Assembly (NCBI RefSeq): GCF_044792175.1
Contig: NZ_CP172866.1
DNA: 64,000 nt
Source: Corallococcus coralloides
Lineage (GTDB): Bacteria; Myxococcota; Myxococcia; Myxococcales; Myxococcaceae
Direction: 5' to 3' (one strand)
Position numbers and translations under genes: made by a program
Shown here: positions 1-63,788 of the stretch, in pieces
Layout: the number at the start of each line of letters is the position of its first letter
How positions within the stretch are numbered: the first letter of the stretch is position 1
Notes under the pieces: model-generated
Told to the model about the DNA's origin: nothing
Databases searched by the model: none
What the model saw: the letters and a program-made list of their open reading frames with translations, nothing else

Positions 1-122
1 TGATCTTCGTCACCCCGCGCATCGTGAACCCGGACTCGGACAAGGTCCGCAGCATCATCGAGGACGTGAAGACCCGCTACAAGCAGGCCCGCTCCGAGGT
101 GAACTTCAACATCTTCGACTGA
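1..122 (+). CDS. Secretin family protein, C-terminal fragment (CpaC/GspD-like); 5' end lies outside the window
   Basis: In-frame translation ...IFVTPRIVNPDSDKVRSIIEDVKTRYKQARSEVNFNIFD* ends at TGA 120-122. The IFVTPRIV motif is typical of the secretin C-terminal domain. It sits directly upstream of a CpaF-type ATPase. Confidence 0.5.
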   Translation, partial: IFVTPRIVNPDSDKVRSIIEDVKTRYKQARSEVNFNIFD

Positions 123-271
123 CGGCCTTTCGCGCCGCCACGTCGGATCCGGGCCGGCCCCATCCCTGCTTCAGAGGGGGAGGGTGCCGGCCCGTTCGTT
201 TCCGGGCAGCAGGCGGGCGAGCGTCTCAGGAGTCTTTGAGGTCGTAGGAGGGCTTGGTAGCATCCCGACCC

Positions 272-2023
272 ATGTTTCTCATCACGCTGACGGAGAAGGG
301 CGGCGGCTCGGAGCAGCGGGAGTACCCCAAGAACGAGATCACGATCGGCCGGATTGCTGGCAACGACATCGTGCTCGCCAAGGGGAACGTCTCCAAGACC
401 CACTCCCGCATCGTCGAAAAGGACGGCCGCTTCATCATCGTGGACATGAAGTCCACGAACGGCACCTTCGTGAACGGCAAGAAGATCGCCGGGCCCATGG
501 TGCTCAAGCCGACCGACCAGGTCTCCATCGGCGACTACATCCTCAACGTCGAGCCGCTGGAAGAAGAGCCCGCCGACGAGGGCTACGACGAGGAGCAGGG
601 CGAGGAGGCCTACGAGGAAGAGGCCTACGAGGAGGAGGAGCCCTACGAGGAGGAGCCGCCTCCGCCCGCCCCCGCGGCGCCCAGCCGCATGCCCGCGTCC
701 ATGGCCGCGGCCATGGCGAAGAACAAGCGCAAGGTGGACCCCCGGCTGGAGCGCTACTCGCGGCTCCAGAAGGAGATCCACGACCGGCTCATCGAGTACC
801 TGGACCTGCGCCGCATGGACATGGACCGGCTCGGGGACGAGGAGCTCTGGCGCCGCACCGAAAAGGCCATCCGGGACATCATCGACCAGATGGAGGCGGA
901 CCAGGAGCTCCCCGGGGACGTGGACCGGGAGGAGCTGCTCACCGACGTCATCAACGAGGCGCTGGGCCTGGGGCCCCTGGAGGCGTTCCTCGCGTCGGAA
1001 GAGATCAGCGAGATCATGGTGAACCACGCCAACCAGATCTACATCGAGCGCAAGGGCAAGCTGACCCTGTCGGAGAAGACGTTCTCCTCCAACCAGGCGG
1101 TGCTCGGCGTCATCGAGCGCATCGTGGCGCCCATCGGCCGCCGCATCGACGAGTCCAGCCCGCTGGTGGACGCGCGCCTCAAGGACGGCAGCCGCGTGAA
1201 CGCCATCATCCCGCCGCTGGCGCTCAAGGGCCCCTGCATCACCATCCGCAAGTTCAAGAAGGACGCGCTGAAGATCCAGGACCTCATCAAGTACAAGACC
1301 ATCACCGCGCAGATGGCCGAGTTCCTGGAGATGTGCGTGACGGCCCGGCGCAACATCGTCATCTCCGGCGGCACGGGCTCCGGGAAGACGACGACGCTGA
1401 ACATCATCAGCTCGTTCATCCCGGAGGGTGAGCGCATCATCACGGTGGAGGACGCGGCGGAGCTCCAACTGCCGCAGGACCACTGGGTGCAGTTGGAGAG
1501 CCGCCCGCCCAACCTGGAAGGCAAGGGCGCCATCACCATCCGCGAGCTGGTGAAGAACTGCCTGCGCATGCGGCCGGACCGCATCGTGGTGGGCGAGTGC
1601 CGCTCCGGTGAGACGCTGGACATGCTCCAGGCCATGAACACCGGCCACGACGGTTCGCTCACCACGCTGCACGCGAACACGCCGCGCGACGCCATCGCCC
1701 GGCTGGAGACCATGGTGCTCATGTCCGGCATGGAGCTGCCGGTGAAGGCCATCCGCGAGCAGATCGCCAGCGCCGTGCACCTCATCGTGCAGCAGACGCG
1801 CTTCTCCGACGGGACGCGCAAGATCTGCTTCGTCACGGAGGTGTCCGGCATGGAGGTCGACATCGTGACCCTCCAGGACATCTTCTATTACAAGCAGGAC
1901 GGCTTCACGGAGGACCACAAGGTGCGCGGGCGCTTCGTGGCTTCGGGCTTCGTGCCGAAGTTCTACGACGAGCTCCAGCGCAAGGGCATCCCCGTGAACA
2001 TGAGCATCTTCCGCGAGGACTGA
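272..2023 (+). CDS. FHA-domain-containing Tad/CpaF-type secretion ATPase (type II/IV secretion NTPase)
   Basis: ORF 254..2023 (TTG); an in-frame ATG at 272 is preferred. It has an N-terminal FHA fold (EITIGR..NDIVL..VSKTHSRI..TNGTFVNG) and an acidic E/Y-rich linker. The C-terminus is a CpaF/TadA ATPase with Walker A (GGTGSGKTTTLN) and RPDRIVVGECR/His-box motifs. Confidence 0.85.
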   Translation: MFLITLTEKGGGSEQREYPKNEITIGRIAGNDIVLAKGNVSKTHSRIVEKDGRFIIVDMKSTNGTFVNGKKIAGPMVLKPTDQVSIGDYILNVEPLEEEPADEGYDEEQGEEAYEEEAYEEEEPYEEEPPPPAPAAPSRMPASMAAAMAKNKRKVDPRLERYSRLQKEIHDRLIEYLDLRRMDMDRLGDEELWRRTEKAIRDIIDQMEADQELPGDVDREELLTDVINEALGLGPLEAFLASEEISEIMVNHANQIYIERKGKLTLSEKTFSSNQAVLGVIERIVAPIGRRIDESSPLVDARLKDGSRVNAIIPPLALKGPCITIRKFKKDALKIQDLIKYKTITAQMAEFLEMCVTARRNIVISGGTGSGKTTTLNIISSFIPEGERIITVEDAAELQLPQDHWVQLESRPPNLEGKGAITIRELVKNCLRMRPDRIVVGECRSGETLDMLQAMNTGHDGSLTTLHANTPRDAIARLETMVLMSGMELPVKAIREQIASAVHLIVQQTRFSDGTRKICFVTEVSGMEVDIVTLQDIFYYKQDGFTEDHKVRGRFVASGFVPKFYDELQRKGIPVNMSIFRED

Positions 2024-2030
2024 CGCGTCC

Positions 2031-2561
2031 ATGCCTACCCTGGTCGTCCGTCACCCTGACGGCACTGAGCACGAGCACGAGATCGCGGGCGAGCTGAAGA
2101 TCGGCCGCCAGCAGGGCAATGACCTGGTCCTCACGGAAGGCGGGGTGTCGCGGCAGCACGCGCGCGTCTACGTGGAGGGCGGCGCCGTCTACATCGAGGA
2201 CGGGGGCAGCCAGAACGGCACCTTCGTGGACGGCGAGCGCATCGAGGGGCCCACGGCGCTGACGCCGGCCTCGCAGGTGCTGCTGGGCGACTACGAGCTG
2301 AAGCTCAAGGGCAGCGCCCGGAGCACCAGCGGCCGCCGCGCGGCGACGCCTCCTCCCGGCGATCCCGCGACGCTCGCGGACGCGCCCGTGAAGGGCACGC
2401 GCGCCATGCCCAGCATCCGCGCCAAGGCCACGCAGAACGGGGCCGCGAAGCCCGAGGGCGCGCTGGCGAAGCGGCCGGCGCGCTCGCGACGTCCGCGGGC
2501 GCGGGGGCCGCTGCCGCGGCGGCGGCGGGCGCGAGCTCGGGGCCGGTGCTCAAGGGCATGA
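2031..2561 (+). CDS. FHA domain protein
   Basis: The N-terminal ~95 aa form an FHA domain (LKIGRQQGNDLVL..VSRQHARV..NGTFVDGERI). The tail is Arg/Pro-rich and low-complexity. It overlaps the next gene by 16 nt. Confidence 0.65.
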   Translation: MPTLVVRHPDGTEHEHEIAGELKIGRQQGNDLVLTEGGVSRQHARVYVEGGAVYIEDGGSQNGTFVDGERIEGPTALTPASQVLLGDYELKLKGSARSTSGRRAATPPPGDPATLADAPVKGTRAMPSIRAKATQNGAAKPEGALAKRPARSRRPRARGPLPRRRRARARGRCSRA

Positions 2562-4255
2562 CGGGGCCTTGGGCGGGCAAGTCCTATCCCATCAACGGCA
2601 CGGTGCTGGTGGGCCGGGCGCCTCCGGCGGCGGTCGTCCTGGATGACGACTCCGTGAGCCGGAAGCACGCGGAGGTGAAGCGCGAGGGCTCCGGCGTCAT
2701 CGCGCGCGACCTGGGCAGCGCCAACGGCACCCTGCTCAACGGCGAGCTGCTGGGCGAGGAGTTCGTCGACCTGCAGCCCGGGGACGTCCTCCAGTTCGGC
2801 GTGGTGGAGATGACCTACGAGGCCGCCGACACGCCCTCGCGCCGTCCCGGTGCGGGCGCGGCGCCGGCCCGTCGCGGCGGCCGGGCGGCTCCCGAGGCGG
2901 ACAAGAAGCGCAAGCTGCTGGTGGTCGCGGGCGGAGTGATCGCGCTGCTGGCGGTGGCGGCGGTGGTGAAGACCTCCATCGGGGCGCCGCAGAAGGCGCA
3001 GAAGACGGGGCCCGCCGCGCCGCTGGATCCCGCGGCGCAGGTGCAGGAGTTCCTCAGCGAGTGCCGCTCGTACTCCTCCAACGAGATGGGGGCTCCCGAC
3101 TGGGACCGCGCCGAGAAGGCGTGCGAGCAGGCCCTGGACATGGACCCCATCAACGCCGAGGCGAACACCCTCGTGCGGCGCATCAAGCTGGAGAAGGAGG
3201 CCTTCGGCAACTTCGAGGCCGCGAAGAAGGCCATCGAACTCAACCGCGAGAAGGACGCGCTGGAGTACCTGCGCAAGATTCCGAAGGAGAGCGAGTACTT
3301 CCGCCGCGCCCGCTCCAAGGCGAAGGAGACGGCCGAGCAGTTCGTGGAGCGCGCGAAGTTCGACTGCAATCGCTACCTGAACAACTCGCAGTGGGGGCCA
3401 GCGGTCCAGCGCTGCCAGCAGTACATGGAAGTGTGGTGCCAGAAGCAGAGCAAGGAGGACCTGGAGCCGCCCATCGGTCAGACGCTCCGCCTGGAGGGCG
3501 GCCTGCGCAAGAACGAGTGGCGCCCCAAGGACGCCATGTTCGTGAAGTTCCTGGTGGCCCGCAACCGCGTGGACCGCAACGCCCAGCCGTGGACGTGCCC
3601 GGTGTCCGACATCCTGCAGGAGGACGGGCTGGGCGTGGATCAGGCCAGCGAGGTGCGCGCCATGTTCGCCAAGCGCTACGCACCGAAGCTCGTCCAGGCG
3701 GCGATGATGGACTACTGGAACGGCCGCGGCAGCGAGGCCATGGCGACGCTGCAGAAGCTGCGCTCGAAGGAGGACCAGGCGCAGTACCACCAGTTGGCGG
3801 ACGACCTCATCCGCGACGTGTCCAACGTGGATCAGCTCTTCAAGACGGGCGAGAGCTCCATCACCAACGACGACCCCGAGCGCGCGGTGGCGCCGTTCAA
3901 GGACGCGCTGGCGACGGACAAGCGCATCATGGCGGAGCTGGCGGAGTCGCACCTGTCCTTCTACCGGAAGAACATGTTCCAGGACCTGGCGGCCTCCGCC
4001 TACCTGCGCGGCAAGCACTTCGCCGACCGCGAGGACCGCCGCCGTGGCTGCCGCATCTGGAAGATGGGCTTCGACTTCTACAAGGGCAACACGAACCTGA
4101 ACCGCGTGGTGGCCTTCTGCTCCACGCAGGCGCAGAACGCGTTGAACAACGTGGGCGGTTGCTCGGACTTCCAGGCGGTGGAGGACTACGCCGTGCCGGG
4201 TGACGGCATCGCCGAGCAGATGGCCGCGAAGAAGGCCGAGCTGAAGTGCCGCTGA
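2546..4255 (+). CDS. FHA domain - transmembrane - large periplasmic domain protein
   Basis: GTG start at 2546 (alternative ATG at 2558). It has an FHA domain (VLVGRAPP..VSRKHAEV..ANGTLLNGE) and one TM helix (LLVVAGGVIALLAVAAVVKT). The C-terminal domain is ~400 aa, Cys-containing, helical and TPR-like. Codon bias is high-GC3. Confidence 0.65.
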   Translation: MLKGMTGPWAGKSYPINGTVLVGRAPPAAVVLDDDSVSRKHAEVKREGSGVIARDLGSANGTLLNGELLGEEFVDLQPGDVLQFGVVEMTYEAADTPSRRPGAGAAPARRGGRAAPEADKKRKLLVVAGGVIALLAVAAVVKTSIGAPQKAQKTGPAAPLDPAAQVQEFLSECRSYSSNEMGAPDWDRAEKACEQALDMDPINAEANTLVRRIKLEKEAFGNFEAAKKAIELNREKDALEYLRKIPKESEYFRRARSKAKETAEQFVERAKFDCNRYLNNSQWGPAVQRCQQYMEVWCQKQSKEDLEPPIGQTLRLEGGLRKNEWRPKDAMFVKFLVARNRVDRNAQPWTCPVSDILQEDGLGVDQASEVRAMFAKRYAPKLVQAAMMDYWNGRGSEAMATLQKLRSKEDQAQYHQLADDLIRDVSNVDQLFKTGESSITNDDPERAVAPFKDALATDKRIMAELAESHLSFYRKNMFQDLAASAYLRGKHFADREDRRRGCRIWKMGFDFYKGNTNLNRVVAFCSTQAQNALNNVGGCSDFQAVEDYAVPGDGIAEQMAAKKAELKCR

Positions 4256-4314: not shown

Positions 4315-7020
4315 ATGGCCGACACCAGCCCCCCGCGCTCCGAGCGCCGCCTGGCGCTCTTCGACGCCTCTGGCTTCATCTTCCGCGCCTATCACGCCAT
4401 CCCCCCGCTCACGACGAGCAAGGGGGTGCCCACCAACGCGGTGCTGGGCTTCACCCGCATGGTGCTCAAGGCCCTGCAGGAGCTGAAGCCCACGCACGTG
4501 GCGCTGGCGTTCGACAAGTCCGGCCGCGTGGAGCGTCAGAAGATCGACCCCACGTACAAGGCGAACCGCAAGGCGCCGCCGGAGGACCTGACGCCCCAGT
4601 TCCCGCTCATCCGCAAGGTGGGTGACGTGCTGAACCTGCCCTCGCTGGACGCGGAGGGCTGGGAGGCGGACGACGTCATCGGCACGCTGGCGATGCAGGC
4701 GAAGGCGGAGGGCTTCCAGGTCCTGGTCATCACCAGCGACAAGGACTTCATGCAGATCGTCGACGAGGACATCACCCTCTTCGACCCCGCGAAGAACAAG
4801 CGCATCGGCGTCGCGGACGTGCAGGAGAAGATGGGCATCCTGCCCGGGCAGGTGCGCGACTTCCTGGCCCTGGTGGGCGACGCGGTGGACAACGTCGCCA
4901 AGGTGCCCGGCGTGGGCGACAAGACGGCGGTGGAGCTGCTCCACCAGTTCGGCGACGTGGAGACGCTGCTCGCGCGCGTGGAGGAGGTGAAGAAGCCGAA
5001 GATCCGCGCGGCGCTGGAGTCCCACCGCGAGAGCCTGACGCGCGCCAAGCAGCTCGTCACGTTCAACACCGGGCTGGCGCTCAACGTGAAGCTGGACGAC
5101 CTGGTCCGCCGCGCGCCGGACGCCACGCGCGCCAGGGACCTGTTCACGGAGCTGGAGTTCTACGCGCTCCTGCGCGACCTGCCCGCGGAGGAGGCCCCGG
5201 CCCGGCCGGACGTGGCGCCGCTCGCCACCACCACCACGCTGGTCACCACCGAGGCGGAGCTGAAGGCGCTGGCGGACGCGGCGAAGGCGGCCGGGGCCCT
5301 CACGCTGGTGCCCGCCTTCGAGGGCATGCCCTTCGCGGCGCCCCTGGTGGGCCTGGGCGTGGCGCTGCCGGACGGCTCCACGCGCTACGTGCCGCTGCGC
5401 CACCAGCAACTGGGCGCCACCCAGGTACCGGTGGCGGCCTTCACCTCGGTGATGAAGGACGTCGTGGCGGACGCGGCGGTGAAGAAGGGCGGACACGACC
5501 TCAAGGCGCTCACGCTGGTGCTGGCCAATGAGGGGCTGACGCTGGAGGGCGCGCACGACGACGTGGAGCTCTTGAGCTACCTGCTCAACCCGTCGCGCCG
5601 GGAGCACGCGCTGGCGGACCTGGCGCGGGAGCGGCTGCGCTCGGAGCTGCCCGCGCTGCCCGCGTCGGTGGAGGGCAAGAAGGGGCGGCCGCTGGCGGAC
5701 CACGGGCCGGAGGAGGTGGCCGCGGCGTACGCGGTGCGCGCGGACGCGGCGCGCAGGCTGGCGCCGGAGCTGTGGAAGGAGCTGGAGCTGGGCGGGCTCG
5801 CGGAGCTGGCGCGCACGCTGGAGCTGCCGCTGCTGCCCGTGCTCGCGCGCATGGAGCGCGAGGGCGTGAAGCTGGACGTGGCGGAGCTGGGCCGCACGTC
5901 CGAGCGCGTGGACGTGGAGGTGAAGGCGAAGGAGGCCGAGTGCCACCAGGCCGCGGGCCACGCCTTCAACCTGGGCTCCAACCCGCAACTGGCGCAGGTG
6001 CTCTACGAGGAGCAGAAGCTGCCCATCCTCAAGCGCGGCAAGACGGGCCCGTCCACGGACCAGGAGGTGCTGGAGAAGCTGGCGGAGGAGCACCACAGCG
6101 TGCTGGCGCGCGCGTTGATCGAATACCGGGGCCTGTCCAAGCTCAAGAGCACCTACCTGGACACGCTGCCCACGCTGGTGGCGGAGGACGGGCGCATCCA
6201 CACCACGTACCACCAGGCGGCCACCGCCACCGGCCGGCTGTCCTCGTCCGACCCGAACCTCCAGAACATCCCCATCCGCACGGAGCTGGGGCGGGAGATC
6301 CGCCGCGCCTTCGTGGCGGACGCGGGGCACCAACTGGTGAGCGCGGACTACTCGCAGATTGAGCTGCGGCTGTTGGCGCACATCGCGGAGGACCCGGTGC
6401 TCATCGAGGCCTTCCGCAACGACGAGGACATCCACAGCCGCACGGCGGCGGAGATCTTCGGCGTGGACCCCAAGGACGTGGACCGCGAGCAGCGCCGCGT
6501 GGCGAAGACGGTGAACTTCGGCATCGCCTACGGCCTGTCCGCGCACGGCCTGTCCACGCGCCTGGGCATCTCCCAGGAGAACGCGCGCGACGTCATCGAG
6601 CGGTACTTCACCCGGTACGCGGGCATCCGCCAGTACCTGGAGGACACCGTGGAGAAGGCGCGCAAGGTGGGCTACGTGGAGACGCTCTACGGCCGCCGCC
6701 GCCTGATGGGGGACCTGCTCTCCAAGAACCGGGCGGTGGCCCAGGCCGCCGAGCGCGCCGCCATCAACATGCCCATCCAGGGCACCGCCGCGGACCTGAT
6801 GAAGAAGGCCATGCTGGCCGTGGACGCCGCGCTCAAGGAGCAGAAGCTGAAGACGCGCGTGCTCCTGCAGGTGCACGACGAACTGCTCTTCGAGGCGCCG
6901 GACGCGGAGGTGGAGGCCGTGAAGGCCCTGGCCGTGAAGAGCATGGCCTCCGTCGCCGAGCTGAAGGTGCCGCTCAAGGTGGAGGTGGGCGCGGGGAAGA
7001 GCTGGGCGGACGCGCACTGA
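4315..7020 (+). CDS. polA: DNA polymerase I
   Basis: 901 aa. The N-terminus has the 5'-3' exonuclease signature (LFDASGFIFRAYHA). The Klenow polymerase motifs are present: RLSSSDPNLQNIPIR, DYSQIELR, VHDELLFE. Confidence 0.95.
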   Translation: MADTSPPRSERRLALFDASGFIFRAYHAIPPLTTSKGVPTNAVLGFTRMVLKALQELKPTHVALAFDKSGRVERQKIDPTYKANRKAPPEDLTPQFPLIRKVGDVLNLPSLDAEGWEADDVIGTLAMQAKAEGFQVLVITSDKDFMQIVDEDITLFDPAKNKRIGVADVQEKMGILPGQVRDFLALVGDAVDNVAKVPGVGDKTAVELLHQFGDVETLLARVEEVKKPKIRAALESHRESLTRAKQLVTFNTGLALNVKLDDLVRRAPDATRARDLFTELEFYALLRDLPAEEAPARPDVAPLATTTTLVTTEAELKALADAAKAAGALTLVPAFEGMPFAAPLVGLGVALPDGSTRYVPLRHQQLGATQVPVAAFTSVMKDVVADAAVKKGGHDLKALTLVLANEGLTLEGAHDDVELLSYLLNPSRREHALADLARERLRSELPALPASVEGKKGRPLADHGPEEVAAAYAVRADAARRLAPELWKELELGGLAELARTLELPLLPVLARMEREGVKLDVAELGRTSERVDVEVKAKEAECHQAAGHAFNLGSNPQLAQVLYEEQKLPILKRGKTGPSTDQEVLEKLAEEHHSVLARALIEYRGLSKLKSTYLDTLPTLVAEDGRIHTTYHQAATATGRLSSSDPNLQNIPIRTELGREIRRAFVADAGHQLVSADYSQIELRLLAHIAEDPVLIEAFRNDEDIHSRTAAEIFGVDPKDVDREQRRVAKTVNFGIAYGLSAHGLSTRLGISQENARDVIERYFTRYAGIRQYLEDTVEKARKVGYVETLYGRRRLMGDLLSKNRAVAQAAERAAINMPIQGTAADLMKKAMLAVDAALKEQKLKTRVLLQVHDELLFEAPDAEVEAVKALAVKSMASVAELKVPLKVEVGAGKSWADAH

Positions 7021-7032
7021 GCACGAAAAAAC

Positions 7033-7068
7033 GCGGGAGAGCGCCCACCCCCGTAGGCGCCCTCCCGC
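7033..7068. terminator. GC-rich hairpin just 3' of polA (candidate intrinsic/bidirectional terminator)
   Basis: GCGGGAGAGCGCC(7033-7045)-loop-GGCGCCCTCCCGC(7056-7068) forms a 12-bp stem with one mismatch. An A6 tract precedes it, which would be a U-tract for the minus strand. The hairpin lies 13 nt after the polA stop. No U-tract follows on the plus strand. Confidence 0.45.
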
Positions 7069-27868: not shown

Positions 27869-28059
27869 GGCGGCGGCCACCGTATGTCGCGTGCCAGGGA
27901 GTGTCATGGATTCCCGCCAGCGGGGTGGGGCGGAAGAAGTGCACGGTTGGACGGCGCCCGGGCAAACGGCTTCCGGCGCGGCCTATTCCCGGTGCTTCGC
28001 GTCCAGCCACACCGAGTGCCTTGACGCGGCGTCACAGGCCCCCCATCCTGCCGCGCCCC

Positions 28060-28710
28060 ATGCCTGTCCTACGTGGTGCCGTGACCTTTTCGCGCTTCCG
28101 GACCGAGCCGGCCAAGGATGCGCCGTCCGACGTCAAGCGCTGGATGACCAAGGGACTCAAGTCCCATGCATTCGAGCCCATCGACCGCCGCTCCGAGGAG
28201 GAGCGCGCCGCGGGGTTTGTCGAGCTGGAGAACCCGGAGTCCTCCGAGTTCGCCACCGGCAACCTCTTCTATGGCGAGTACGCCCTGTTCGCCTTCCGCA
28301 TCGACACGCTGAAGGTGCCCGCGTCGATGATGAAGTCGGAGCTGGACAAGTGGTCCGCCGCCTTCGCCAAGGAGAACGGCCGGCCGCCCGCGCGCGCGGA
28401 GAAGAACAAGCAGCGCGCGGAGCTCAAGCAGCTCCTGCGTCAGCGCGCGGTGCCGCGCACCAGCACGCTGGACGTGACGTGGAACCTGAAGACGCACACG
28501 GTGCAGGTCTGGGCCGCGTCGCGCAAGACGGTGGATGAGATCTGCGTGGCGCTGGAAGGCGCCCTGGCGGTGAAGGTGATTGGCATCACGCCCGCGTCCA
28601 TGGCGCAGCGCGCGGGCATCGACGAGAAGGCCCTGGGCCCCACGGCGGAGCTCATTGGCATGGACCTGCCGGCGACGGCTTCGGTGGAGGGCGCCCATGG
28701 CGAGGCGTGA
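28060..28710 (+). CDS. RdgC-like (recombination-associated) protein, N-terminal-region homolog
   Basis: The patterns M.VLRGAVTFSRFR... and VPASMMKSELDKW...AEKNKQRAELKQLLRQRAVPRTSTLDVTWNLKTHTVQVWAASRKTVDEICVALEGAL parallel E. coli RdgC residues ~85-170 from memory. ORF begins at 27901; the ATG at 28060 is preferred. Confidence 0.4.
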   Translation: MPVLRGAVTFSRFRTEPAKDAPSDVKRWMTKGLKSHAFEPIDRRSEEERAAGFVELENPESSEFATGNLFYGEYALFAFRIDTLKVPASMMKSELDKWSAAFAKENGRPPARAEKNKQRAELKQLLRQRAVPRTSTLDVTWNLKTHTVQVWAASRKTVDEICVALEGALAVKVIGITPASMAQRAGIDEKALGPTAELIGMDLPATASVEGAHGEA

Positions 28711-55859: not shown

Positions 55860-56924
55860 TCAGGTCCTCCGTCCGCGCGCATCCACGCGCCGCGCCAGCT
55901 CCGGGGCCAGCGCCTCCAGGGGCACCACGGCATCCGCGAGCCCCGCCTGTTCCACCGCGCCCGGCATGCTGCCGGCGACGCAGCTTGCCTGGTCCTGCAC
56001 CACCACCTGTCCGCCCGCCTCGTTCACGCGCCGGCAGCCGCGCAGCCCGTCCTGGCCCATGCCGGTGAGCACCACCGCCAGCACCCCCGCGCCGTACACC
56101 TCCGCCGCGGAGCGGAAGAGCAGGTCCACCGCCGGGCGGCACGCGTTCTCCGCCGGCCCCTGGTGCGTGTGCAGCCGCACGCCCGCGGCATCCCGGCACA
56201 CGGCCAGGTGGAAGTCGCCGGGAGCGACCCACACCTCGCCCGCGTTCACGGCCGCGCCCGGCACCGCCTCGCGCACGGTGAGCGGCGTCACCCCCTGCAA
56301 CCGCTCCGCGAGCAGCCGGGTGAAGACGGGAGGCATGTGCTGCACGATGAACACCGGCACCGGCAGGTCCGCGGGCAGCGCGGACACCAGGCGCACCAGC
56401 GCGCCCGGGCCCCCGGTGGATGCGCCGACGACGATGGCCTCCACCCGAGCGGGCATCCTCGGCCGGAGCGGGAGCTCGCGCGTCACCGGTGACAGTGGAG
56501 ACGCGGCGGAGGGCGTGCGCACGTTCAGCGCCTTGAGCTTGCGCACCAGTTCGTCGCGCACGGCCTCCAGGGGGATGTTCATCCCGCCCGCGGACGTGGG
56601 CTTCGTCACGTAGTCGCGGGCCCCCAGCGCGAGCGCCTCCAGGGTCAACAGGCCCGCGCGTTCGGTGAGCGCGCTGAACATCACCACGGGCAGCTCCGGG
56701 GCGCGCTGGCGCAGGAGCTTCAGCGTCTCCAGCCCGTCCAGCTCCGGCATCTCCAGGTCCAACAGCACGACGTCGGGTTGGAACTGCTCCACCTTCGCCA
56801 GGGCGATGCGGCCATTGGGCGCGGTGGCGACGACCTCCAGGCCCGGCGCCGTGCCCAGCAGCAGCGACACCTGACGCCGCACCACGGCCGCGTCGTCCAC
56901 GACCAATACCCGGATGGCGTTCAT
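55860..56924 (-). CDS. cheB: Chemotaxis response regulator protein-glutamate methylesterase CheB
   Basis: The receiver domain (IRVLVVDDAAVVRR..VLLDLEMPELDG) is joined to the methylesterase domain (IVVGASTGGPGAL.., IVQHMPP.FT, GMGQDG). ATG at 56924. Confidence 0.85.
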   Translation of the reverse strand: MNAIRVLVVDDAAVVRRQVSLLLGTAPGLEVVATAPNGRIALAKVEQFQPDVVLLDLEMPELDGLETLKLLRQRAPELPVVMFSALTERAGLLTLEALALGARDYVTKPTSAGGMNIPLEAVRDELVRKLKALNVRTPSAASPLSPVTRELPLRPRMPARVEAIVVGASTGGPGALVRLVSALPADLPVPVFIVQHMPPVFTRLLAERLQGVTPLTVREAVPGAAVNAGEVWVAPGDFHLAVCRDAAGVRLHTHQGPAENACRPAVDLLFRSAAEVYGAGVLAVVLTGMGQDGLRGCRRVNEAGGQVVVQDQASCVAGSMPGAVEQAGLADAVVPLEALAPELARRVDARGRRT

Positions 56925-56935
56925 TCGCACCCGCG

Positions 56936-57271
56936 TCACCGCACCGCGTGCGCGACCGGGCAGCGGCCCGCGGGGGGGCTGGAGGCCCTCTCGCCATACA
57001 CCTCGTGGCGCGGCCGGCTCGCGAGGATGGCGCTGGCGCCCCAGTCCGTCACGCGGTGGAAGGCCTCGGACGCGATGAAGGCGTCGAAGCCCTCGCGGCT
57101 GTGCCACTCGGAGACGATGAGGTAGCGCCCCGGCGCCCCCACGCTCTTGAACAGCTCCGTGTGCACGTGCGCAGGCAGCTCGCGCATCGCCTCCTGCACG
57201 AGCGCGAACTTCCGCTCGAAGGCCTCCGCCTTGCCCTCACGCACCTCGTAGTTCATGCCGATGGTGACCAT
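56936..57271 (-). CDS. ABM-like (antibiotic biosynthesis monooxygenase fold) small protein embedded in che operon
   Basis: 111 aa with the ferredoxin-like ABM pattern (MVTIGMNYEVREGKAEAFE..., YLIVSEWHSREGFDAF). Confidence 0.55.
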   Translation of the reverse strand: MVTIGMNYEVREGKAEAFERKFALVQEAMRELPAHVHTELFKSVGAPGRYLIVSEWHSREGFDAFIASEAFHRVTDWGASAILASRPRHEVYGERASSPPAGRCPVAHAVR

Positions 57272-57293
57272 CCGTCACCTCCTTGTCCGTGTG

Positions 57294-58823
57294 TCATTCG
57301 AGCCAGACCCGGACACGCCGCTGGCCCTCGTCCAGGTGGAACAACTCCGATGGCCGCAGCCCCGCCGCGACCGCCGCGGTCCCCATGGCCACCGGATCCA
57401 GGCCCCGCGCCGCCAGCTTGCGAGGCAGGTCCTCCGGCAGCAGGTCCTCCAGGTGCGCCGTCACGTCCGCGCGGAAGGTCAGCGCGACGCGCGTGTGCCC
57501 TCCCTCCGTCACCTGGACCTTCAGGTAGCGCGCGGCGCCCTCCGCCCGAACTTCAGGCGGTGACGGTGGAGGCGGCAGCGATGGGGCGCGGGCCTCGTCC
57601 AGCAGCGGCCCCCAGGCGATGGGCACATCCAGCACGTCCAGGTGGCGGACCAGCCCGTGGAACGCGCGCAGGACGAACAGGAGCGACGCGGGCCCCGCCG
57701 CGCGGAAGTTCCAGCGGTGCGGCCCCAGCGCCTCGGTGAGCCGCGCGCCCAGCCGCCAGCTTCGCGCGTGGAAGGGGCGGTCCAGGAGGAAGGGCTCCAG
57801 CAGCACGCGGCTGACGGCGGGCAGCGCCTCCGCCATGGGCTCCAGCAGCTCCGGCGCGAATCCCAGCATCACCCACGCGGGCAGGAGCTGCTCGGGGCGC
57901 GGCGGAGTGCCCGGACCCTTGAGGAGCGTAATCAACCGCCCCAACCCCACGGCCAGCTCCGGCGGCAGTGGCTTCACACAGCCGAAGTCGAGCACCCCCA
58001 GCACGGGCTTGCCGTCAGGGCCGCGCGACACGCGGTAGTTGCCCGGGTGAGGATCCGCGTGGAGCGCGCCCCACGTGAAGCAGCCGTGGAGGAACAGCCG
58101 CACCAGCGTCGTGGACAGCGCGCGGCGATCCGCTTCGCTCCAGCGCCAGCCCTCCGCCAGCGACGCGCCCTCCACCCAGGTCATCACCAGCAGGTCTTCC
58201 CGCGTGAGCGCGTCCACCGGCTCGGGGATGACGACGCCGGGCACGTCCGCCATGCGCGTGCCCGCGTCCCGCAGGGACTGGGCTTCGTGGTGATAGTCCA
58301 GCTCGCCCTGGAGCATGCGGGCCAGCTCGTGGCGGTAGGCGGAAAGGTCCAGCTTCCCGCGCCAGCCTCCCAGCGGCGCGGCCAGCCACCCCAGTGCGCG
58401 CAGATCCTCCCGCACGGCCTCCGCGATGCCCGGGTGCCGCAGCTTCACGGCCACGGCGCGGCCGTCATGCAGCACGCCCCGGTGCACCTGGCCCAGGGAC
58501 GCGGCGATGCCCACGCCCTCTAGCGACTGAAACACCTCCCGCCACGGGCGGCCCAACCGGCGGGACACCTCCGCCAGCGCGGCCTCCGGCGCGAGCGGGG
58601 AGGGCGCCTCCGCGAGCGAACCGAACCCCGGTGTCTCCGCGCCCAGCTCCGCGAGCGTGAGCACCTGGCCCACCTTCTGGGGCAGCCCGCGCAGGCCCAA
58701 CAGCCGCTGGGCCAGCTCATGCCGAGCCTCTTCCACGTCCAGGGGCCGGGACACCCGCTTCATGCGCGTGGAGGCACGGGCCACCTGGCCCAGCGCCCAC
58801 CATCGCTTCAGTCCGGTTCGCAT
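57294..58823 (-). CDS. ABC1/UbiB-family atypical protein kinase
   Basis: ASLGQVHRG...DGRAVAVKLRHPGI (ABC1 A-rich loop/VAIK-like) and HADPHPGN (catalytic loop). Confidence 0.8.
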   Translation of the reverse strand: MRTGLKRWWALGQVARASTRMKRVSRPLDVEEARHELAQRLLGLRGLPQKVGQVLTLAELGAETPGFGSLAEAPSPLAPEAALAEVSRRLGRPWREVFQSLEGVGIAASLGQVHRGVLHDGRAVAVKLRHPGIAEAVREDLRALGWLAAPLGGWRGKLDLSAYRHELARMLQGELDYHHEAQSLRDAGTRMADVPGVVIPEPVDALTREDLLVMTWVEGASLAEGWRWSEADRRALSTTLVRLFLHGCFTWGALHADPHPGNYRVSRGPDGKPVLGVLDFGCVKPLPPELAVGLGRLITLLKGPGTPPRPEQLLPAWVMLGFAPELLEPMAEALPAVSRVLLEPFLLDRPFHARSWRLGARLTEALGPHRWNFRAAGPASLLFVLRAFHGLVRHLDVLDVPIAWGPLLDEARAPSLPPPPSPPEVRAEGAARYLKVQVTEGGHTRVALTFRADVTAHLEDLLPEDLPRKLAARGLDPVAMGTAAVAAGLRPSELFHLDEGQRRVRVWLE

Positions 58824-58857
58824 GTGCCGTGGCTCCGTGGGCCTGACGCCGTCCGCG

Positions 58858-60960
58858 CTACTTCGTCCGCGCCTGCTTGTCGGTCGTGTCCACCTGCACG
58901 ACCAGCCGTTGCAGCGACTGCGCCATGTGGGCCAGCTCCACCGCCGAACGCTGCGTGCTGCCCGCGCCCTCGGTGGTGCTGCGCGCCGCCTCCGCCACGG
59001 CGGCCATGTTCTCGGAGATCTGCTGGCTGCCCTTGGCGGCCTCGCCCACGTTGCGCAGGATTTCTCCCGCGGTGGCCGTCTGCTCCTCCACGGAGGAGGC
59101 GATGGACGTCTGCAGCTCGTTGATGCGGCCGATGGTGGCGCCGATCTCCAGGATGGCGTTGACCACCTCCTCGGTGTCGCCCTGGATGCTGCCGATCTTC
59201 TGGCCGATGTCCTCCGTGGCGCGGGCCGTCTCGCGCGCCAACTCCTTCACCTCGTTGGCCACCACCGCGAAGCCCCGGCCCGCCTCACCGGCGCGCGCCG
59301 CCTCGATGGTCGCGTTGAGCGCCAGCAGGTTCGTCTGCTGCGCGATGGAGGTGATGACCTTGATGACCTTGCCGATCTCCTGGCTGCTCGTCCCCAGCTT
59401 GCCGACGACGCTGGACGTGGAGTCCGCGAGCTTCACCGCGGACGCGGCCACCTTGGCGGCGGTGCTCGCGTTGCGCGCCACCTCGCGGATGTTCGCGTTG
59501 ACCTCCTCCATGCCGGACGCGACGCTCTGCACGTTGCGGCTGACCTGTTCGGCGCCGGCGGACACCTGGGTGGCCTGCGCCGCGGTCTCCTGCGCGTTGC
59601 TCACCATCTGCTGGCTGACGCTGGACAGCTCCTGCGACGACGCGGCGAGCGTCTGCGAGTGCTGCGTCACCTCCTGGAAGATGCCGCGCAGGGTGGCGTC
59701 CAGCTCCTTCTCGCGCTGCTGCACCGCGAGCTTCTCCGTGATGAGCTCCCACGTCACCATGGGGCCCAGGTAGCGGCCCTGGCCGTCGTACACCGCCGTC
59801 ACCAGCAGGTCCGCGGTCTCCGGGCCAATGGGGATGTTCGCGCGCACCGGCAGGTTCTTGTCGTTGGCCAGGATCTTCCGCTGGTACGTCGAGTCGCGGT
59901 GGAAGACGTCGATGCTGGACCCCAGCACCCGGTCCGCCGTGACGGGTAGGTGCTTCTCCACGCGCTGCAACAGCCGGCGCGAGGCGGGGTTCAGGTAGAC
60001 GATCTTCAGGTCCACGTCCGCCACCATCACGCAGGTGGGCGCGTTCTCCAGCATGGCCCTGAGGCGAGCCATCTCCGTGTCCGCGCGCTGCTGGTCCGTG
60101 ATGTCCGTCCACGTCACCACGTAGCCGGTGAGCGCGCCGCCCCGGCCCTCGATGCCGTCGATGCGCGCCTTGAGCAGGGTGGGGCCCACCGCGAAGTGGG
60201 TCTCGTGCGGCAGCGACGACGGGTCGCTCAGCCGCTCCTCCTCCAGCCGCAACTGGTGCTCGAAGTGGGCGAGGAAGTCGCTGCCCCCGTCCCCCGCGCC
60301 GTCGCGGAAGGCGGCCGTCTGGCTGATGCGCTCGATGGCCTCCGACGCGGACGCGTTCGAGAAGACGATGGCCAGGTCCGCGTCCAGGACGAACAGGTTG
60401 ACCCGCGCCGCGTCCAGCACCGCCTCGCTCAGCGCCCCTTCGAGCGGCGTGGCCGTGCGGCGGCGCGAGGACCGGCCCGCGGGCGCGGACGCCACGGCGA
60501 CCCGGCGTCCCTCCGTCCGGGAGGCGCGCGCCGGAGCACGCTTCACGGCGGCGGTCCGCGAGGCGGCCTTCGCCACGGGCCTGCCCACGCCGGCATCCCG
60601 CGACGAGCCCGCGGCCGCCAGCACCTCGCGGGCGACGGGCCCCGGCACGTCCAGCTCATCCAGCACGCTGGCCAGGTGCTCGGTGACGCGCTCGAAGTGA
60701 TGGGGCTTGAGCTCCAGGCGCGCGTGCAGGTCGCGCATGGACGGGCCCTTGTAGACGGCCGTTCCGCCCAGGAACCGGGTGAGGAACGCGACCATCTGGC
60801 GCTGAATCTCGACCAGGTCCTCGCGGCGGAAGTAGGGCTTGAGCAGCGCGTCCGTCATGACCCGCGCGTAGAGCCTCTGCACGGCGGCCGTCAGGGGGGC
60901 CTTGCCGCCCAGGCGCTGGAAGGGAGTGGTTTTCACGGCGGGCGCGGTCGGGCGGGCCAT
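58858..60960 (-). CDS. Soluble chemoreceptor: N-terminal truncated hemoglobin (group I 2/2 globin) - PAS - PAS - methyl-accepting (MCP) signalling domain
   Basis: Residues ~10-125 ([33 protein letters not shown]...FLGG...[27 protein letters not shown]) align to trHbN. They carry the GG motif, B10 Tyr and proximal His. There is no TM segment. The C-terminus has the MCP highly conserved domain (...[32 protein letters not shown]...). ATG at 60960 overlaps the cheW stop. Confidence 0.8.
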
Positions 60961-61448
60961 CAGCGGGGCTCCTGGGCAAGCACGGGGAAGGAAGGGGAGG
61001 CGGGAGCGCTGGACGCGGGCGAGAGCCCGTCCACCACCGCGTCCGCGGACAACACGAGCAGCAGCCGGTCCGGCAGCGCGTGGACCCCCAGCAGCAGCGA
61101 GCGCAGCGGCCCGCGCAGGTTGTCCGGCAGCGGCGCCAGGTCCGACTGCTCGAAGGGGAGGATGTCGCCAATGGCATCCACGCGAAGGCTCACCGCGCCT
61201 TCGTCGCCGCGCAGGACGACGTGGGGCGCGTCCGCGGGGGCGGTGCCCTCGGGCAGGTCCAGGCGGCGGCGCAGGTCGATGGCGGGGACGATCTGCCCGC
61301 GCAGGTTGAGCAGCCCCGCCACCTCCGGCGGCGCGCCGGGGACGCGCGTGAGCGGCGGCGGCAGCAGGATCTCCTGCACGCGTTCGATGTCCAGGCCGAA
61401 CAGGTGCTCGCCCACCTGGAACGAGCACAGTTGCCGGAGGCCGCTCAT
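60960..61448 (-). CDS. cheW: Chemotaxis coupling protein CheW
   Basis: 162 aa with the CheW-like domain ([19 protein letters not shown]...[15 protein letters not shown]). ATG at 61448 overlaps the cheA stop (ATGA). Confidence 0.8.
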
Positions 61449-63583
61449 GGCGCACCGCCGGTCAGCAGCTCCGGGTGCACGGCGCGCACGGTGCCCTCCA
61501 CGTCCAGGAACTCGGTGGCCCGGGCCTGCACCACCATGGAGCCCAGCACGCCCGGACGGCGCGTCTCCCGCTGGAGCGCGAGCTCCACCTCCGCGACGTC
61601 GAGGATGGCGTCCACCACCAGCCCCACGCGCGCGTCCGCGTGCTGGGTGACGACGACGGACAGCGACTCGCCCGGGGCGGCCTGGAGCTGCCGTGCCATC
61701 CGCTCCGTCGCGCCGGGCGTCGCCTCCAGCACGGACGCCACGCGCACCAGCGGCAGCAGTTGCCCGTGGTAGCGCGCCATCTCCATGCCGCCGCTCAGCC
61801 GCTCCACGTCCGAGGCGGGCAGCTCCTCCAGCCGGGCCACGCGCGACAGGGGAATCGCCACCCGGCCCTCCGCGCCATGGCGGCACAGCAGCACCCGCTC
61901 GCGCGTCTCCTCCGGCGCCGGTGCCTCCACGGCGGCCTCCGGGATGACGACCTGGGCCTGGGCCTCGTTGACGGTGCCCACGCGGCGGCCCAGGCCCATG
62001 GCGTCCAGGATGAGCGCCACGCGCCCGTCGCCCAGCACCGTCGCGCCCGCGTAGCAGGCCAGCCCCTTCAGGTGCTTCCACAGCGGCTTGACGACGATCT
62101 CCTCCGTGTCGTGGATGGCGTCCACCCACAGCCCGAAGGCGCACTCGCCCGCCTGGAGCACGACGACGGTGGCGCCCTCGTCCAGGTCCGGCATCGCCGG
62201 CCCCACGCCCAGCTCGGCGGCGAGCACCCCCAGCGGCAGCAGCTCCCCGCGCAGCCGCAGCACGCAAGCGCCCTGGAGGCGGGTGATGTCCCTGCGCGCC
62301 TGGGCCGGCTCCAGGAACACCACCTCTCGCAGGGAGGCCTGCGGAAGCGCGTAGCGGTCTCCCCGGCAGGTGACGAGCAGCGCCGGGATGATGGCCAGCG
62401 TGAGGGGAATCTTCAGGGTGAACGTGGTGCCCTGACCGGGCCGGCTGTGCACCTCCACGGTGCCGCCAATGCGCTCCACCTGCGTGCGCACCACGTCCAT
62501 GCCCACGCCCCGGCCGGACAAGGACGTGACGCGCTCCGCGGTGCTGAAGCCCGGCATGAAGATGAGCATCAGCGCGTCCGCGTCCGGCAGCCGCGCCGCC
62601 TGGTCGGCCGTGAGCAGGCCCCGCTGCACCGCGACCTGCCGCACGCGCTGCACGTCGATGCCCGCGCCGTCATCGGACATGCCCAGGTGCACGAGCCCGC
62701 CCTCGTGCGACGCGCTCAGCGTCAGGCACCCCACGGGCGGCTTGCCGGCGGCGCGGCGCTGCTCGGGCGTCTCCACGCCGTGGTCCACGGCGTTGCGCAG
62801 CAGGTGGGTGAGCGGATCATGCAGCGCCTCCACCAGCGTCTTGTCCAGCTCCGTGTCCGCGCCCTGCAGTTGCAGCCGCACCTGCTTGCCGCACCCGTGC
62901 GCCAGCTCGCGCACCAGCCGGGGGAAGCGGTTCCACACCTGCCCCACCGGCTGGAGCCGCGTCTTCATCACCACCTGCTGCACCTGCGTGGTGACGACGT
63001 CCAGCCGCTGCGACGCGGTCGTCAGGTCCGCGCCCGGCGTGGGCGAGGCCGCGCACTGGAGGATGCGGTTGCGCGCCAGCACCAGCTCGCCCATCAGGTT
63101 CATCAACCGGTCCAGCAGCGCCACGTCCACGCGCAGCTTGGAGTCCACCCCGGTCGCGGCGCCGCGCCAGGGCAGGGCGCCCGGAGGCGCCAGGGGCTCG
63201 GACACCTCCAGCGGCGCGGAGCCCGCCGCCGCGCCCGCCATGCGCGCGAGCAGCGCGGAGTGGTCCACCGCGGGCTCCAGCCCCGTCGCCTCGATGTGCT
63301 CCAGCGCCCCGCGCGCCGCGTCCGCCAGCGCCAGCAGCGTGGACACGCGCTCGCGGTCCAGCACCAGGCGCCGGTCGCGCGCCAGCCCGAGCATCTCCTC
63401 GGCGGCGTGCATCAGCGCCTCCAGGCGGCTGAAGCCCAGGAAGCCGCAGGTGCCCTTCACCGTGTGCAGGGCCCGGAACAACTGCGCCAGCAACGGCTGC
63501 GAGCCCGGCTGCGCCTCCAGCTCCAGCACCGTCGCCTCGATGGCCTGCACGTGCTCGCGGGACTCCAGGAGGAACTCCCGCAT
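61445..63583 (-). CDS. cheA: Chemotaxis histidine kinase CheA (two C-terminal CheW-like domains)
   Basis: Hpt domain with HTVKG, dimerisation domain, HATPase (N/G1/F/G2 boxes: [24 protein letters not shown]), and two CheW-like domains. ATG at 63583. Confidence 0.85.
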
Positions 63584-63788
63584 CACGTCATCCCAGCCCG
63601 GAGTGTCACCCACGGACAGGCGCCCTCTGGACGGAAGTCCACGCGGACTGTATGTCTTTGATGATACGGCTTTGACCGGCGCTGCCCATGGGCAACGGCC
63701 CCCCCGACCCACAGGACTCCGGAGTCGAAATCACAGCATCCTCCAACGTCAACGGCGTGAAACCTGTCCCGGAGGGAAGGGTCCCTGC

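What the first reader, a model, noticed from the sequence alone, without database searches (positions are those of the whole stretch)
1..4255. Tad-like apparatus end with an FHA-fused CpaF ATPase and two further FHA proteins (Kil-like contact-killing machinery?)
A secretin C-terminus is followed by a CpaF/TadA ATPase that carries an N-terminal FHA domain and an acidic Tyr/Glu-rich linker. Two more FHA-domain genes follow. The second of these is FHA-TM-periplasmic, so it could relay phospho-Thr signals across the membrane. FHA-regulated Tad-like systems in myxobacteria have been linked to contact-dependent prey killing. The triple-FHA arrangement points to Ser/Thr-kinase control of this secretion ATPase.
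Basis: partly seen in the sequence, partly recalled or inferred. Interest (0 to 1): 0.55.

Follow-up and report, generated by a model that had tools for sequence, protein, structure and literature searches.

The report
Known Kil prey-killing pilus genes, kilD frameshifted

Summary
The sequence features are real. Window 3-122 is the last 39 codons of a secretin. Window 272-2023 is an FHA-fused CpaF-type ATPase with an acidic, Tyr-rich linker. Two FHA ORFs follow (2031-2561 and 2546-4255), then polA.

The region is the orthologue of the 3' end of Myxococcus xanthus kil cluster I (kilC-kilF-kilD-polA, MXAN_3106-3108). KilF is 92% identical to the M. xanthus protein. Gene order is conserved for about 12 kb. 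That system is published as the contact-dependent prey-killing Tad-like apparatus, and its FHA-fused ATPase is described explicitly.

One correction is needed. The two downstream ORFs are the two halves of a single gene, kilD. They map colinearly to residues 1-152 and 153-739 of Corallococcus exiguus KilD. A +2-nt indel at about 2485-2488, in the linker between the FHA domains, separates them. Every full-length homologue found is fused. dN/dS shows no decay, so the frameshift is either recent or an assembly error.

All three FHA domains keep the phosphothreonine-binding residues. Ser/Thr-kinase control remains untested.

One side result: KilD is called cytoplasmic in the literature. Here it has a conserved transmembrane helix followed by an all-helical domain with 10 invariant cysteines, which predicts a bitopic protein with a periplasmic domain.

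The parts
3..122 (+). 3' end of kilC (Tad/CpaC-type secretin): last 39 codons plus the TGA stop at 120-122. The gene runs off the left edge of the window.
   Evidence: Translation. It is 39/39 identical to the C. exiguus secretin C-terminus and 37/39 identical to DK1622 KilC residues 444-482. The full-length neighbours carry PF00263 Secretin.
272..2023 (+). kilF: FHA-fused CpaF/TadA-type hexameric pilus ATPase, 583 aa. The FHA domain is at about nt 338-532, the acidic Tyr-rich linker with the conserved MPASMAAAMAKNKRKV motif at about nt 557-736, and the T2SSE ATPase at about nt 962-1861.
   Evidence: Pfam FHA 3e-17 and T2SSE 1.2e-65. CpaF 9e24 matches at E 1.9e-127. Identity is 92% to DK1622 KilF and 98% to C. 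exiguus. Walker A GTGSGKT, Asp box VEDAAE, Walker B IVVGE and His box GHDGSLTTLHA are all present. The MPAS[LM]A motif is in 120/120 homologues.
2031..2486 (+). kilD, N-terminal part in its native frame (residues 1-152). FHA1 is at about nt 2097-2288. The Ala/Pro/Gly-rich linker carries the conserved TRAMPS motif at 2397-2414.
   Evidence: Pfam FHA 8e-18. Identity is 145/152 to C. exiguus KilD residues 1-152. It aligns to GarA with GR / SRxH / NGT matched. The T[RK]A[MLI]P motif is in 103/113 homologues.
2484..2490 (+). Frameshift site in kilD. The window has 2 extra bases (TCGCGACG versus TC--CACG in relatives).
   Evidence: DNA alignments. It is the only non-triplet coding indel in 7.1 kb against L003, L006 and L007. 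The high-GC3 frame switches here.
2487..2561 (+). Out-of-frame read-through tail of the first kilD fragment (24 Arg-rich codons). It ends at TGA 2559-2561, which overlaps the in-frame ATG at 2557 (ATGA).
   Evidence: Sequence, translations, comparison with relatives.
2489..4255 (+). kilD, C-terminal part in the second frame, equivalent to KilD residues 153-739. Possible restart codons are GTG 2546 and ATG 2557. FHA2 is at about nt 2603-2800. The transmembrane helix LLVVAGGVIALLAVAAVVK is at nt 2915-2971. The all-helical domain with 10 invariant Cys, predicted periplasmic, is at nt 3023-4252.
4315..7020 (+). polA (DNA polymerase I), immediately downstream. In M. xanthus it is reported as the last gene of the kilA-kilC-kilF-kilD-polA operon.
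   Evidence: Pfam DNA_pol_A 2.5e-155. No terminator-like site lies on the + strand between kilF and polA; a 16-bp hairpin sits at 7033-7068 after polA. The operon prediction is in bioRxiv 10.64898/2026.08.20.745974.

Best explanation
Window 1-4255 is the 3' end of kil cluster I of a Corallococcus strain close to C. exiguus / sp. AB030. It holds the end of kilC (secretin), kilF (FHA-fused CpaF-type ATPase) and kilD, followed by polA.

Shown in M. xanthus (literature):
- KilD clusters form first at the point of prey contact, without needing the Tad core.
- KilF is then recruited and powers polymerisation of the KilP Flp-type pilus through the KilC secretin.
- The predator pauses and the prey dies.

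Inferred here from sequence:
- KilD is not a soluble cytoplasmic protein. It is a bitopic inner-membrane protein with two cytoplasmic FHA domains, a linker, one transmembrane helix (N-in, C-out) and a cysteine-rich, TPR-like helical domain in the periplasm.
- All three FHA domains (one in KilF, two in KilD) keep the phosphothreonine-binding residues. The likeliest wiring is therefore that an envelope or contact event leads to Thr phosphorylation by a kinase encoded elsewhere. FHA-pThr contacts then nucleate KilD and dock KilF at that site.
- Candidate docking or phospho-sites are the conserved T-R-A-M-P-S motif in the KilD inter-FHA linker and the MPASLAxALAKNKRKV motif in the KilF linker.

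In this window kilD is interrupted by a +2-nt frameshift in the linker between FHA1 and FHA2. It would yield a 176-aa FHA1 fragment. If translation restarts at GTG 2546 or at ATG 2557 (which overlaps the stop as ATGA), it would also yield an FHA2-TM-periplasmic fragment. Both fragments would have intact domains. The frameshift is either a recent mutation or an assembly error.

The confidence of 0.85 applies to the identity of the region as the kil cluster I orthologue with a frameshifted kilD. I am less sure of the bitopic KilD topology (about 0.75) and much less sure of the phospho-relay wiring (about 0.4).
For: Orthology and synteny:
- The DK1622 locus has the order FHA protein, prepilin peptidase, secretin, ATPase, 2xFHA protein, polA. 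This matches the MXAN_3104-3108 table of Seef 2021.
- The downstream genes are identical in kind.

Published function:
- Killing phenotypes, NG-KilF and NG-KilD clusters, and KilD clusters independent of the Tad core.
- KilF is required for KilP pilus polymerisation, and KilD clusters precede the pilus.

One gene split in two:
- Colinear mapping to KilD residues 1-152 and 153-739, and the +2 indel.
- Of the 120 best homologues, 113 are at least 700 aa; the 7 shorter ones are partial or lie on short contigs.
- 10/10 distant homologues (23-36% identity in the C-domain) still have two FHA stretches.

No decay:
- dN/dS is 0.14 and 0.28 for the two halves, against 0.20 for polA.

FHA residues and ATPase motifs:
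- The KilF ATPase motifs are intact.

KilD topology:
- The hydrophobic 19-mer scores Kyte-Doolittle 2.0-2.76 in 32/32 homologues, including M. xanthus KilD.
- There are 0-2 Cys before the helix and 10-11 after it. The net charge on the N-terminal side is at least as positive as on the C-terminal side in 30/32.
- The 10 Cys are invariant and none lies in a CxxC motif.
- AF2 gives a confident all-alpha C-domain separated by a low-confidence helix.
Against: - No Ser/Thr kinase or phosphatase gene was found among the window ORFs I scanned, and no phosphorylation data exist for any Kil protein in the papers read. The phospho-relay is therefore pure inference.
- Both primary papers describe KilD as cytoplasmic. 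I could not run a dedicated topology predictor or inspect Cys-Cys distances in the model.
- Whether the frameshift exists in the organism cannot be decided from one sequence. The exact 38-mer across it is absent from the species-representative genome collection. The exact KilF and PolA proteins are not on record either, so no second copy of this strain was available.
- The upstream half of cluster I and all of cluster II lie outside the window.
Confidence: 0.85

Rival explanations
1. The frameshift is real and inactivating. In this strain kilD is a fresh pseudogene, so the Kil machine is crippled, for example in a laboratory-passaged or non-predatory lineage.
For: - The +2 indel is the only frame-breaking change in 7.1 kb.
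- It is a complex change (C to GCG), not a homopolymer-length error.
- kilD is essential for killing in M. xanthus.
- Every full-length homologue found is a single fused protein, even at 24% identity.
Against: - There is no second lesion. dN/dS is 0.14-0.28, as for polA, so any inactivation must be very recent.
- The break lies in a disordered linker and leaves both FHA domains, the TM helix and the C-domain intact.
- The stop overlaps an in-frame ATG (ATGA), which could allow coupled re-initiation.
- An assembly error in a 70% GC, low-complexity stretch is equally plausible.
Confidence: 0.2
2. The FHA domains are phospho-independent scaffolding modules. In this view KilD acts like the T3SS basal-body protein SctD/YscD (FHA-like domain, TM helix, periplasmic domain), and no kinase is involved in Kil assembly.
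For: - All three domains also pass the Pfam Yop-YscD_cpl model (37.8, 48.2 and 58.8 bits against a cut-off of 33.2).
- KilD has the same FHA-TM-periplasm layout.
- No kinase gene was found among the window ORFs scanned.
Against: - The canonical pThr-pocket residues (G-R, S-x-x-H, N-G) are retained in all three domains and are invariant in KilD FHA2 across 32 homologues.
- The periplasmic domain is all-helical, not the alpha/beta ring-building motifs of SctD.
- From my own knowledge, M. xanthus encodes about 100 Ser/Thr kinases, so absence from the locus says little.
Confidence: 0.15
3. This is an ordinary Tad/Flp adhesion pilus locus whose FHA decoration is unrelated to predation.
For: The ATPase is a close CpaF homologue (E 1.9e-127 to Caulobacter CpaF), and database names say 'Flp pilus assembly ATPase'.
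Against: - The window shows position-for-position synteny and 92% identity with the experimentally characterised kil cluster I of M. xanthus.
- Deletion of the M. xanthus orthologues abolishes prey killing.
- The FHA fusion and the KilD partner are signatures that the Kil papers list as distinguishing Kil from classical Tad systems.
Confidence: 0.03

Closest known systems
Myxococcus xanthus Kil system, cluster I (MXAN_3105-3108: KilA, KilC, KilF, KilD); Seef et al. 2021 eLife; Herrou et al. 2025 Nat Commun
   Same: - The gene order kilC-kilF-kilD-polA and the downstream neighbours are the same.
- KilF is 92% identical, with the same N-terminal FHA fusion and acidic linker.
- The last 39 residues of KilC are 95% identical.
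- KilD has the same architecture: FHA, FHA, hydrophobic helix, then a Cys-rich helical domain (56-65% identity).
   Different: - The genus is different (Corallococcus).
- kilD is read in two frames because of a +2-nt indel.
- KilD diverges much faster than KilF.
- My sequence analysis predicts that KilD, including the M. xanthus protein, spans the membrane, whereas the papers call it cytoplasmic.
Caulobacter crescentus CpaF (Tad pilus motor; PDB 9e24, 8rkd)
   Same: The ATPase core and the three-helix-bundle region align over query residues 124-570 at E 1.9e-127. All nucleotide-binding motifs are present. It is probably a single bifunctional motor.
   Different: CpaF has no FHA domain and no acidic Tyr-rich linker. 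It serves surface adhesion rather than prey killing.
T3SS inner-ring protein SctD/YscD/PrgH
   Same: The layout is the same: cytoplasmic FHA-fold domain, single TM helix, periplasmic domain. The Pfam Yop-YscD_cpl model is passed.
   Different: - KilD has two FHA domains with intact pThr pockets.
- Its periplasmic part is an all-helical, TPR-like, cysteine-rich domain, not ring-building motifs.
- There is no sequence relationship beyond the FHA fold.
Pseudomonas aeruginosa T6SS threonine-phosphorylation pathway (PpkA/PppA/Fha1, TagQRST)
   Same: It is a contact- or envelope-triggered secretion machine whose assembly site is set by an FHA protein binding a pThr. The Kil authors themselves cite it as the model.
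   Different: - The kinase and phosphatase are encoded in that locus; none was found in the parts of this window that I scanned.
- Fha1 is soluble.
- The machine itself is unrelated (T6SS versus Tad).
Bdellovibrio bacteriovorus DgcB FHA domain (PDB 6hc0)
   Different: It is fused to a GGDEF cyclase, not to a membrane-spanning scaffold. Only the FHA domain is related.

Membership tests
M. xanthus-type Kil system, cluster I | CpaF-type ATPase carrying an N-terminal FHA domain and orthologous to KilF (MXAN_3107) | tested here: met
   FHA plus T2SSE. Identity to DK1622 KilF is 89-92% over the full length. Seef 2021 describes the KilF FHA fusion.
M. xanthus-type Kil system, cluster I | Gene order secretin (kilC), kilF, kilD, polA | tested here: met
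   Window ORFs compared with the DK1622 locus L002 and Corallococcus loci L003-L007. The next six genes also match. kilA and the upstream genes lie beyond the window edge.
M. xanthus-type Kil system, cluster I | Intact single-polypeptide KilD (2x FHA plus C-terminal TPR-like domain, about 740 aa) | tested here: not met
   A +2-nt frameshift at 2485-2488 splits the gene into 176-aa and 569-aa ORFs. All domains are present. Whether the lesion is biological is unknown.
M. xanthus-type Kil system, cluster I | Companion cluster II (kilB, kilG, kilH, pilins) and the major pilin kilP elsewhere in the genome | not testable with these tools
   Only 64 kb of this genome is available, and none of the window ORFs scanned is Tad-related.
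M. xanthus-type Kil system, cluster I | Required for contact-dependent prey killing | not testable with these tools
   This needs genetics in this strain. It is shown only for M. xanthus.
CpaF/TadA pilus ATPases (PilT/VirB11 superfamily) | Walker A, Asp box, Walker B and His box; homology to CpaF | tested here: met
   Motifs. CpaF 9e24 matches at E 1.9e-127. The NCBIfam TadA-family model TIGR03819 scores 324 bits, below its 373-bit equivalog cut-off, so it is a family member but not that narrow equivalog.
Phosphothreonine-binding FHA domains | Conserved pocket residues G-R (beta3-4 loop), S-x-x-H (beta4-5 loop) and N-G (beta6-7 loop) | tested here: met
   The regular expression is matched in all three domains. 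The residues align with GarA and are invariant in KilD FHA2 across 32 homologues.
Phosphothreonine-binding FHA domains | Actual binding of a pThr ligand made by a cognate Ser/Thr kinase | not testable with these tools
   No kinase gene was found among the window ORFs scanned, and no phosphorylation data are in the papers read (0 occurrences of 'kinase' or 'phosphoryl').
SctD/YscD-type basal-body proteins | Periplasmic ring-building (alpha/beta RBM) domains after the TM helix | tested here: not met

The most novel reading that the evidence does not exclude
KilD is the transmembrane coupler of the Kil system rather than a cytoplasmic accessory protein. In this reading, its disulfide-bonded periplasmic helical domain detects the envelope event caused by prey contact. 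Its two cytoplasmic FHA domains then nucleate the machine by pThr-dependent docking of FHA-KilF. This would fit the published finding that KilD clusters form first and without the Tad core. If the frameshift in this strain is real and the strain still kills, it would further show that FHA1 can work in trans, as a natural domain-dissection experiment.
Probability: 0.3. Interest if true: 0.6.

Novelty: already known. Interest (0 to 1): 0.25.

Why it matters
For a genome scan this is a correct recognition of a published system, not a discovery. The Kil Tad-like apparatus, its FHA-fused ATPase and the surplus of FHA proteins were described in 2021, and intact orthologues from other Corallococcus genomes are in public databases.

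Two by-products may be useful to people working on Kil:
1. KilD, used in the field as a 'cytoplasmic' fluorescent marker of Kil assembly, has in every homologue a strong transmembrane helix followed by a domain with 10 invariant cysteines. This would place half of the protein in the periplasm and make KilD a candidate for the missing link between prey contact and assembly.
2. The inter-FHA linker tolerates, or at least carries, a break in this strain. That marks a natural boundary for dissecting the roles of FHA1 and FHA2.

Tried and rejected
- **Source genome.** I searched the species-representative genome collection for the exact 38-mer spanning the frameshift and found no match. Exact look-ups of the window's PolA and KilF found nothing on record. 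No second copy of this strain was available to judge the frameshift.
- **Second frameshift as a sign of an error-prone assembly.** The overlapping same-strand ORFs 27901-28710 and 28580-29386 looked suspicious. The GC3 frame plot shows the switch exactly at the stop of the first ORF, with an ATG available, so they are two adjacent genes and not a frameshift.
- **Ser/Thr kinase in the window.** Pfam scans of 30 further ORFs found none. One ABC1 atypical kinase-like protein lies at 57294-58823.
- **NCBIfam GltG hits.** The hits to all three proteins cover only the FHA domain plus the low-complexity linker. I did not treat them as evidence of a specific GltG relationship.
- **Antisense ORFs inside kilF, kilD and polA** (for example 77-2032 and 2291-4018 on the minus strand). 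I rejected these as artefacts of 70% GC content, since the + strand ORFs have database orthologues and domain hits.
Full report
**1. What is in the sequence.**

The window has about 70% GC. The longest-ORF list is therefore full of antisense artefacts. On the + strand there are four consecutive, domain-bearing reading frames.
- Frame 3 of bases 3-119 reads IFVTPRIVNPDSDKVRSIIEDVKTRYKQARSEVNFNIFD, followed by TGA at 120-122.
- An ORF runs to 2023. Its first ATG is at 272 (MFLITLTEKGG..., 583 aa). It has an FHA domain (PF00498, 3e-17) and a T2SSE ATPase domain (PF00437, 1.2e-65).
- ORF 2031-2561 (176 aa) has an FHA domain at 8e-18. ORF 2546-4255 (569 aa) has one at 2.5e-18 plus a weak TPR hit.
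- polA follows at 4315-7020.

**2. Identity.**

The ATPase has thousands of homologues. The closest are 98% (Corallococcus sp. AB030), 95% (Corallococcus sp. ZKHCc1 1396) and 89% (M. xanthus DK1622) identical by BLASTP. A separate Smith-Waterman alignment gives 92% to DK1622.

I fetched the DK1622 locus. Its gene order is glyQ, glyS, two unknown genes, an FHA protein, a prepilin peptidase, a secretin, the FHA-ATPase, a 743-aa protein with two FHA domains, polA, a small unknown ORF, Peptidase_MA_2, DivIVA, HEAT, DnaJ, SpoIIM. This is exactly the MXAN_3102-3108 table in Supplementary file 1 of Seef et al. 2021: MXAN_3104 FHA protein, 3105 KilA, 3106 KilC, 3107 KilF, 3108 KilD.

The window continues with the same downstream genes. 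The 39-residue fragment at the left edge is 37/39 identical to the C-terminus of DK1622 KilC and 39/39 identical to that of C. exiguus. Over 7.1 kb the window is 96% identical in DNA to three Corallococcus contigs.

The region is thus the 3' end of kil cluster I in a Corallococcus strain.

**3. What is known about it.**
- Seef et al. 2021 (PMC8460266) showed that deleting kilC, kilF or kilD abolishes contact-dependent prey killing.
- They showed that NG-KilF and NG-KilD form clusters at the prey contact site just before lysis. NG-KilD clusters still form in Tad-core mutants.
[quoted passage not shown] They propose a T6SS-like phospho-signalling cascade.
- Herrou et al. 2025 (PMC12075869) showed that KilF is required for polymerisation of the KilP pilus, and that KilD clusters precede the pilus.
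- A 2026 preprint predicts a kilA-kilC-kilF-kilD-polA operon. Consistent with that, I found no terminator-like site on the + strand between kilF and polA, and a strong hairpin just after polA.

**4. The 'two further FHA genes' are one gene with a frameshift.**
- In DK1622 and in the four Corallococcus genomes for which I fetched this locus, the gene after kilF is a single ORF of 734-743 aa with two FHA domains.
- The two window ORFs map colinearly and without overlap onto C. exiguus KilD: residues 1-152 (145/152 identical) and residues 153-739 (549/587 identical).
- DNA alignments place the break at window 2485-2488. The window reads CGCTCGCGACG where three relatives read CGCT--CCACG.
- In 7.1 kb, every other coding indel is a multiple of three. 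This one is the only exception. The high-GC3 frame switches at the same point.
- After the shift the first ORF reads 24 Arg-rich out-of-frame codons and stops at TGA 2559-2561. That stop overlaps an ATG (2557) which is in frame with the rest of kilD and encodes a conserved Met.
- Of the 120 best homologues of the downstream ORF, 113 are at least 700 aa. The 7 shorter ones are partial or sit on short contigs.
- A full scan of 1.84 billion cluster representatives with the C-terminal domain found only 222 relatives. In full-length hits the domain sits at about residues 320-745. Ten distant relatives (23-36% identity) all carry two FHA stretches. The fused architecture is therefore the rule for the family.
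- dN/dS against C. exiguus is 0.14 (N half) and 0.28 (C half), compared with 0.09 for kilF and 0.20 for polA.

There is no sign of decay, so the frameshift is either very recent or an assembly error. I could not decide between these, because no other copy of this strain's sequence exists in the collections.

**5. FHA domains.**

All three domains match G-R...S-x-x-H...[ST]-x-N-G-[ST].
- KilF: GRIAGNDIVLAKGNVSKTHSRIVEKDGRFIIVDMKSTNGT.
- KilD FHA1: GRQQGNDLVLTEGGVSRQHARVYVEGGAVYIEDGGSQNGT.
- KilD FHA2: GRAPPAAVVLDDDSVSRKHAEVKREGSGVIARDLGSANGT.

Actual phosphorylation, and the kinase, remain unknown. No Pkinase gene appeared among the 30 further ORFs of the window that I scanned.

**6. KilF details.**
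- Walker A, Asp box, Walker B and His box are intact.
- The core aligns with Caulobacter CpaF cryo-EM structures over residues 124-570 at E 1.9e-127.
- The acidic, Tyr-rich linker is variable in sequence but conserved in kind in 120 homologues (median 69 aa, 26% D/E, 4 Tyr). It ends in an invariant MPAS[LM]A...KNKRKV motif, present in 120/120.
- The KilD inter-FHA linker is otherwise low in complexity. It holds a conserved T[RK]A[MLI]P[SA] motif in 103/113 homologues (TRAMPS at window 2397-2414).

I regard these motifs as candidate docking or phospho-sites. This is inference only.

**7. KilD topology.**

Both primary papers call KilD cytoplasmic, and neither mentions a transmembrane segment. 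The sequence argues otherwise.
- A 19-residue window (LLVVAGGVIALLAVAAVVK) scores Kyte-Doolittle 2.59. The equivalent segment scores 2.0-2.76 in all 32 aligned homologues, including M. xanthus KilD (LIMVAAGLVGVLLMVGMVS, 2.53).
- It is preceded by a basic patch (KKRK), and the net charge on the N-terminal side is at least as positive as on the C-terminal side in 30/32 homologues.
- Every homologue has 0-2 cysteines before the segment and 10-11 after it. Ten of these are invariant, and none lies in a CxxC motif.
- AF2 (pLDDT 82) predicts a short isolated helix flanked by disordered linkers, followed by a confident all-helical domain of about 410 residues.

Because the N-terminal FHA domains have no signal peptide and must be cytoplasmic, a single spanning helix puts the Cys-rich domain in the periplasm. 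An even number of invariant cysteines fits disulfide bonding there. The functional N-terminal NeonGreen fusion is compatible with this topology.

**8. Verdict.**
- The two points that go beyond the literature I read are the predicted bitopic topology of KilD and the frameshift in this strain. The first is a testable re-annotation. The second needs read-level confirmation before any biological meaning is attached to it.

Noticed in passing
window 30357-33134 (+): A 925-aa ORF is a clear homologue of the eukaryotic Major Vault Protein (MVP_shoulder 6e-45; Vault repeat domains 6e-32, 6e-31 and 4e-21). It is a bacterial MVP-like gene in a myxobacterium.
   Followed up: no
window 34358-35971 (+): A 537-aa protein has an N-terminal LysM domain and a T6SS VgrG3-like C-terminal domain (2e-53), which suggests a peptidoglycan-targeting enzyme. 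It may be relevant to prey lysis, but it is not linked to the kil genes here.
   Followed up: no
window 55860-63712 (-): A chemosensory module: CheB methylesterase (55860-57107), a globin-PAS-MCP receptor (58858-61455) and CheA with a CheW domain (61445-63712). An ABC1 atypical kinase-like gene lies between them at 57294-58823.
   Followed up: no
window 557-736 (kilF linker) and 2397-2414 (kilD linker): Two short conserved motifs sit in otherwise variable, disordered linkers. MPAS[LM]A..A.KNKRKV is in KilF (120/120 homologues). T[RK]A[MLI]P[SA] is in KilD (103/113). Both contain an R/K-(A)-M-P-(A)-S core. They are possibly a shared docking or phosphorylation motif.
   Followed up: partly
window 27901-29386 (+): Two overlapping same-strand ORFs, the first with a partial RdgC match (profile positions 22-157 of 298). 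They looked like a second frameshift, but the GC3 frame plot fits two adjacent genes with a short overlap.
   Followed up: yes
window 7033-7068: A 16-bp GC-rich hairpin with a T-tract on the minus strand lies directly after polA, between convergent genes. It is probably a shared or bidirectional terminator closing the kil-polA transcription unit.
   Followed up: no
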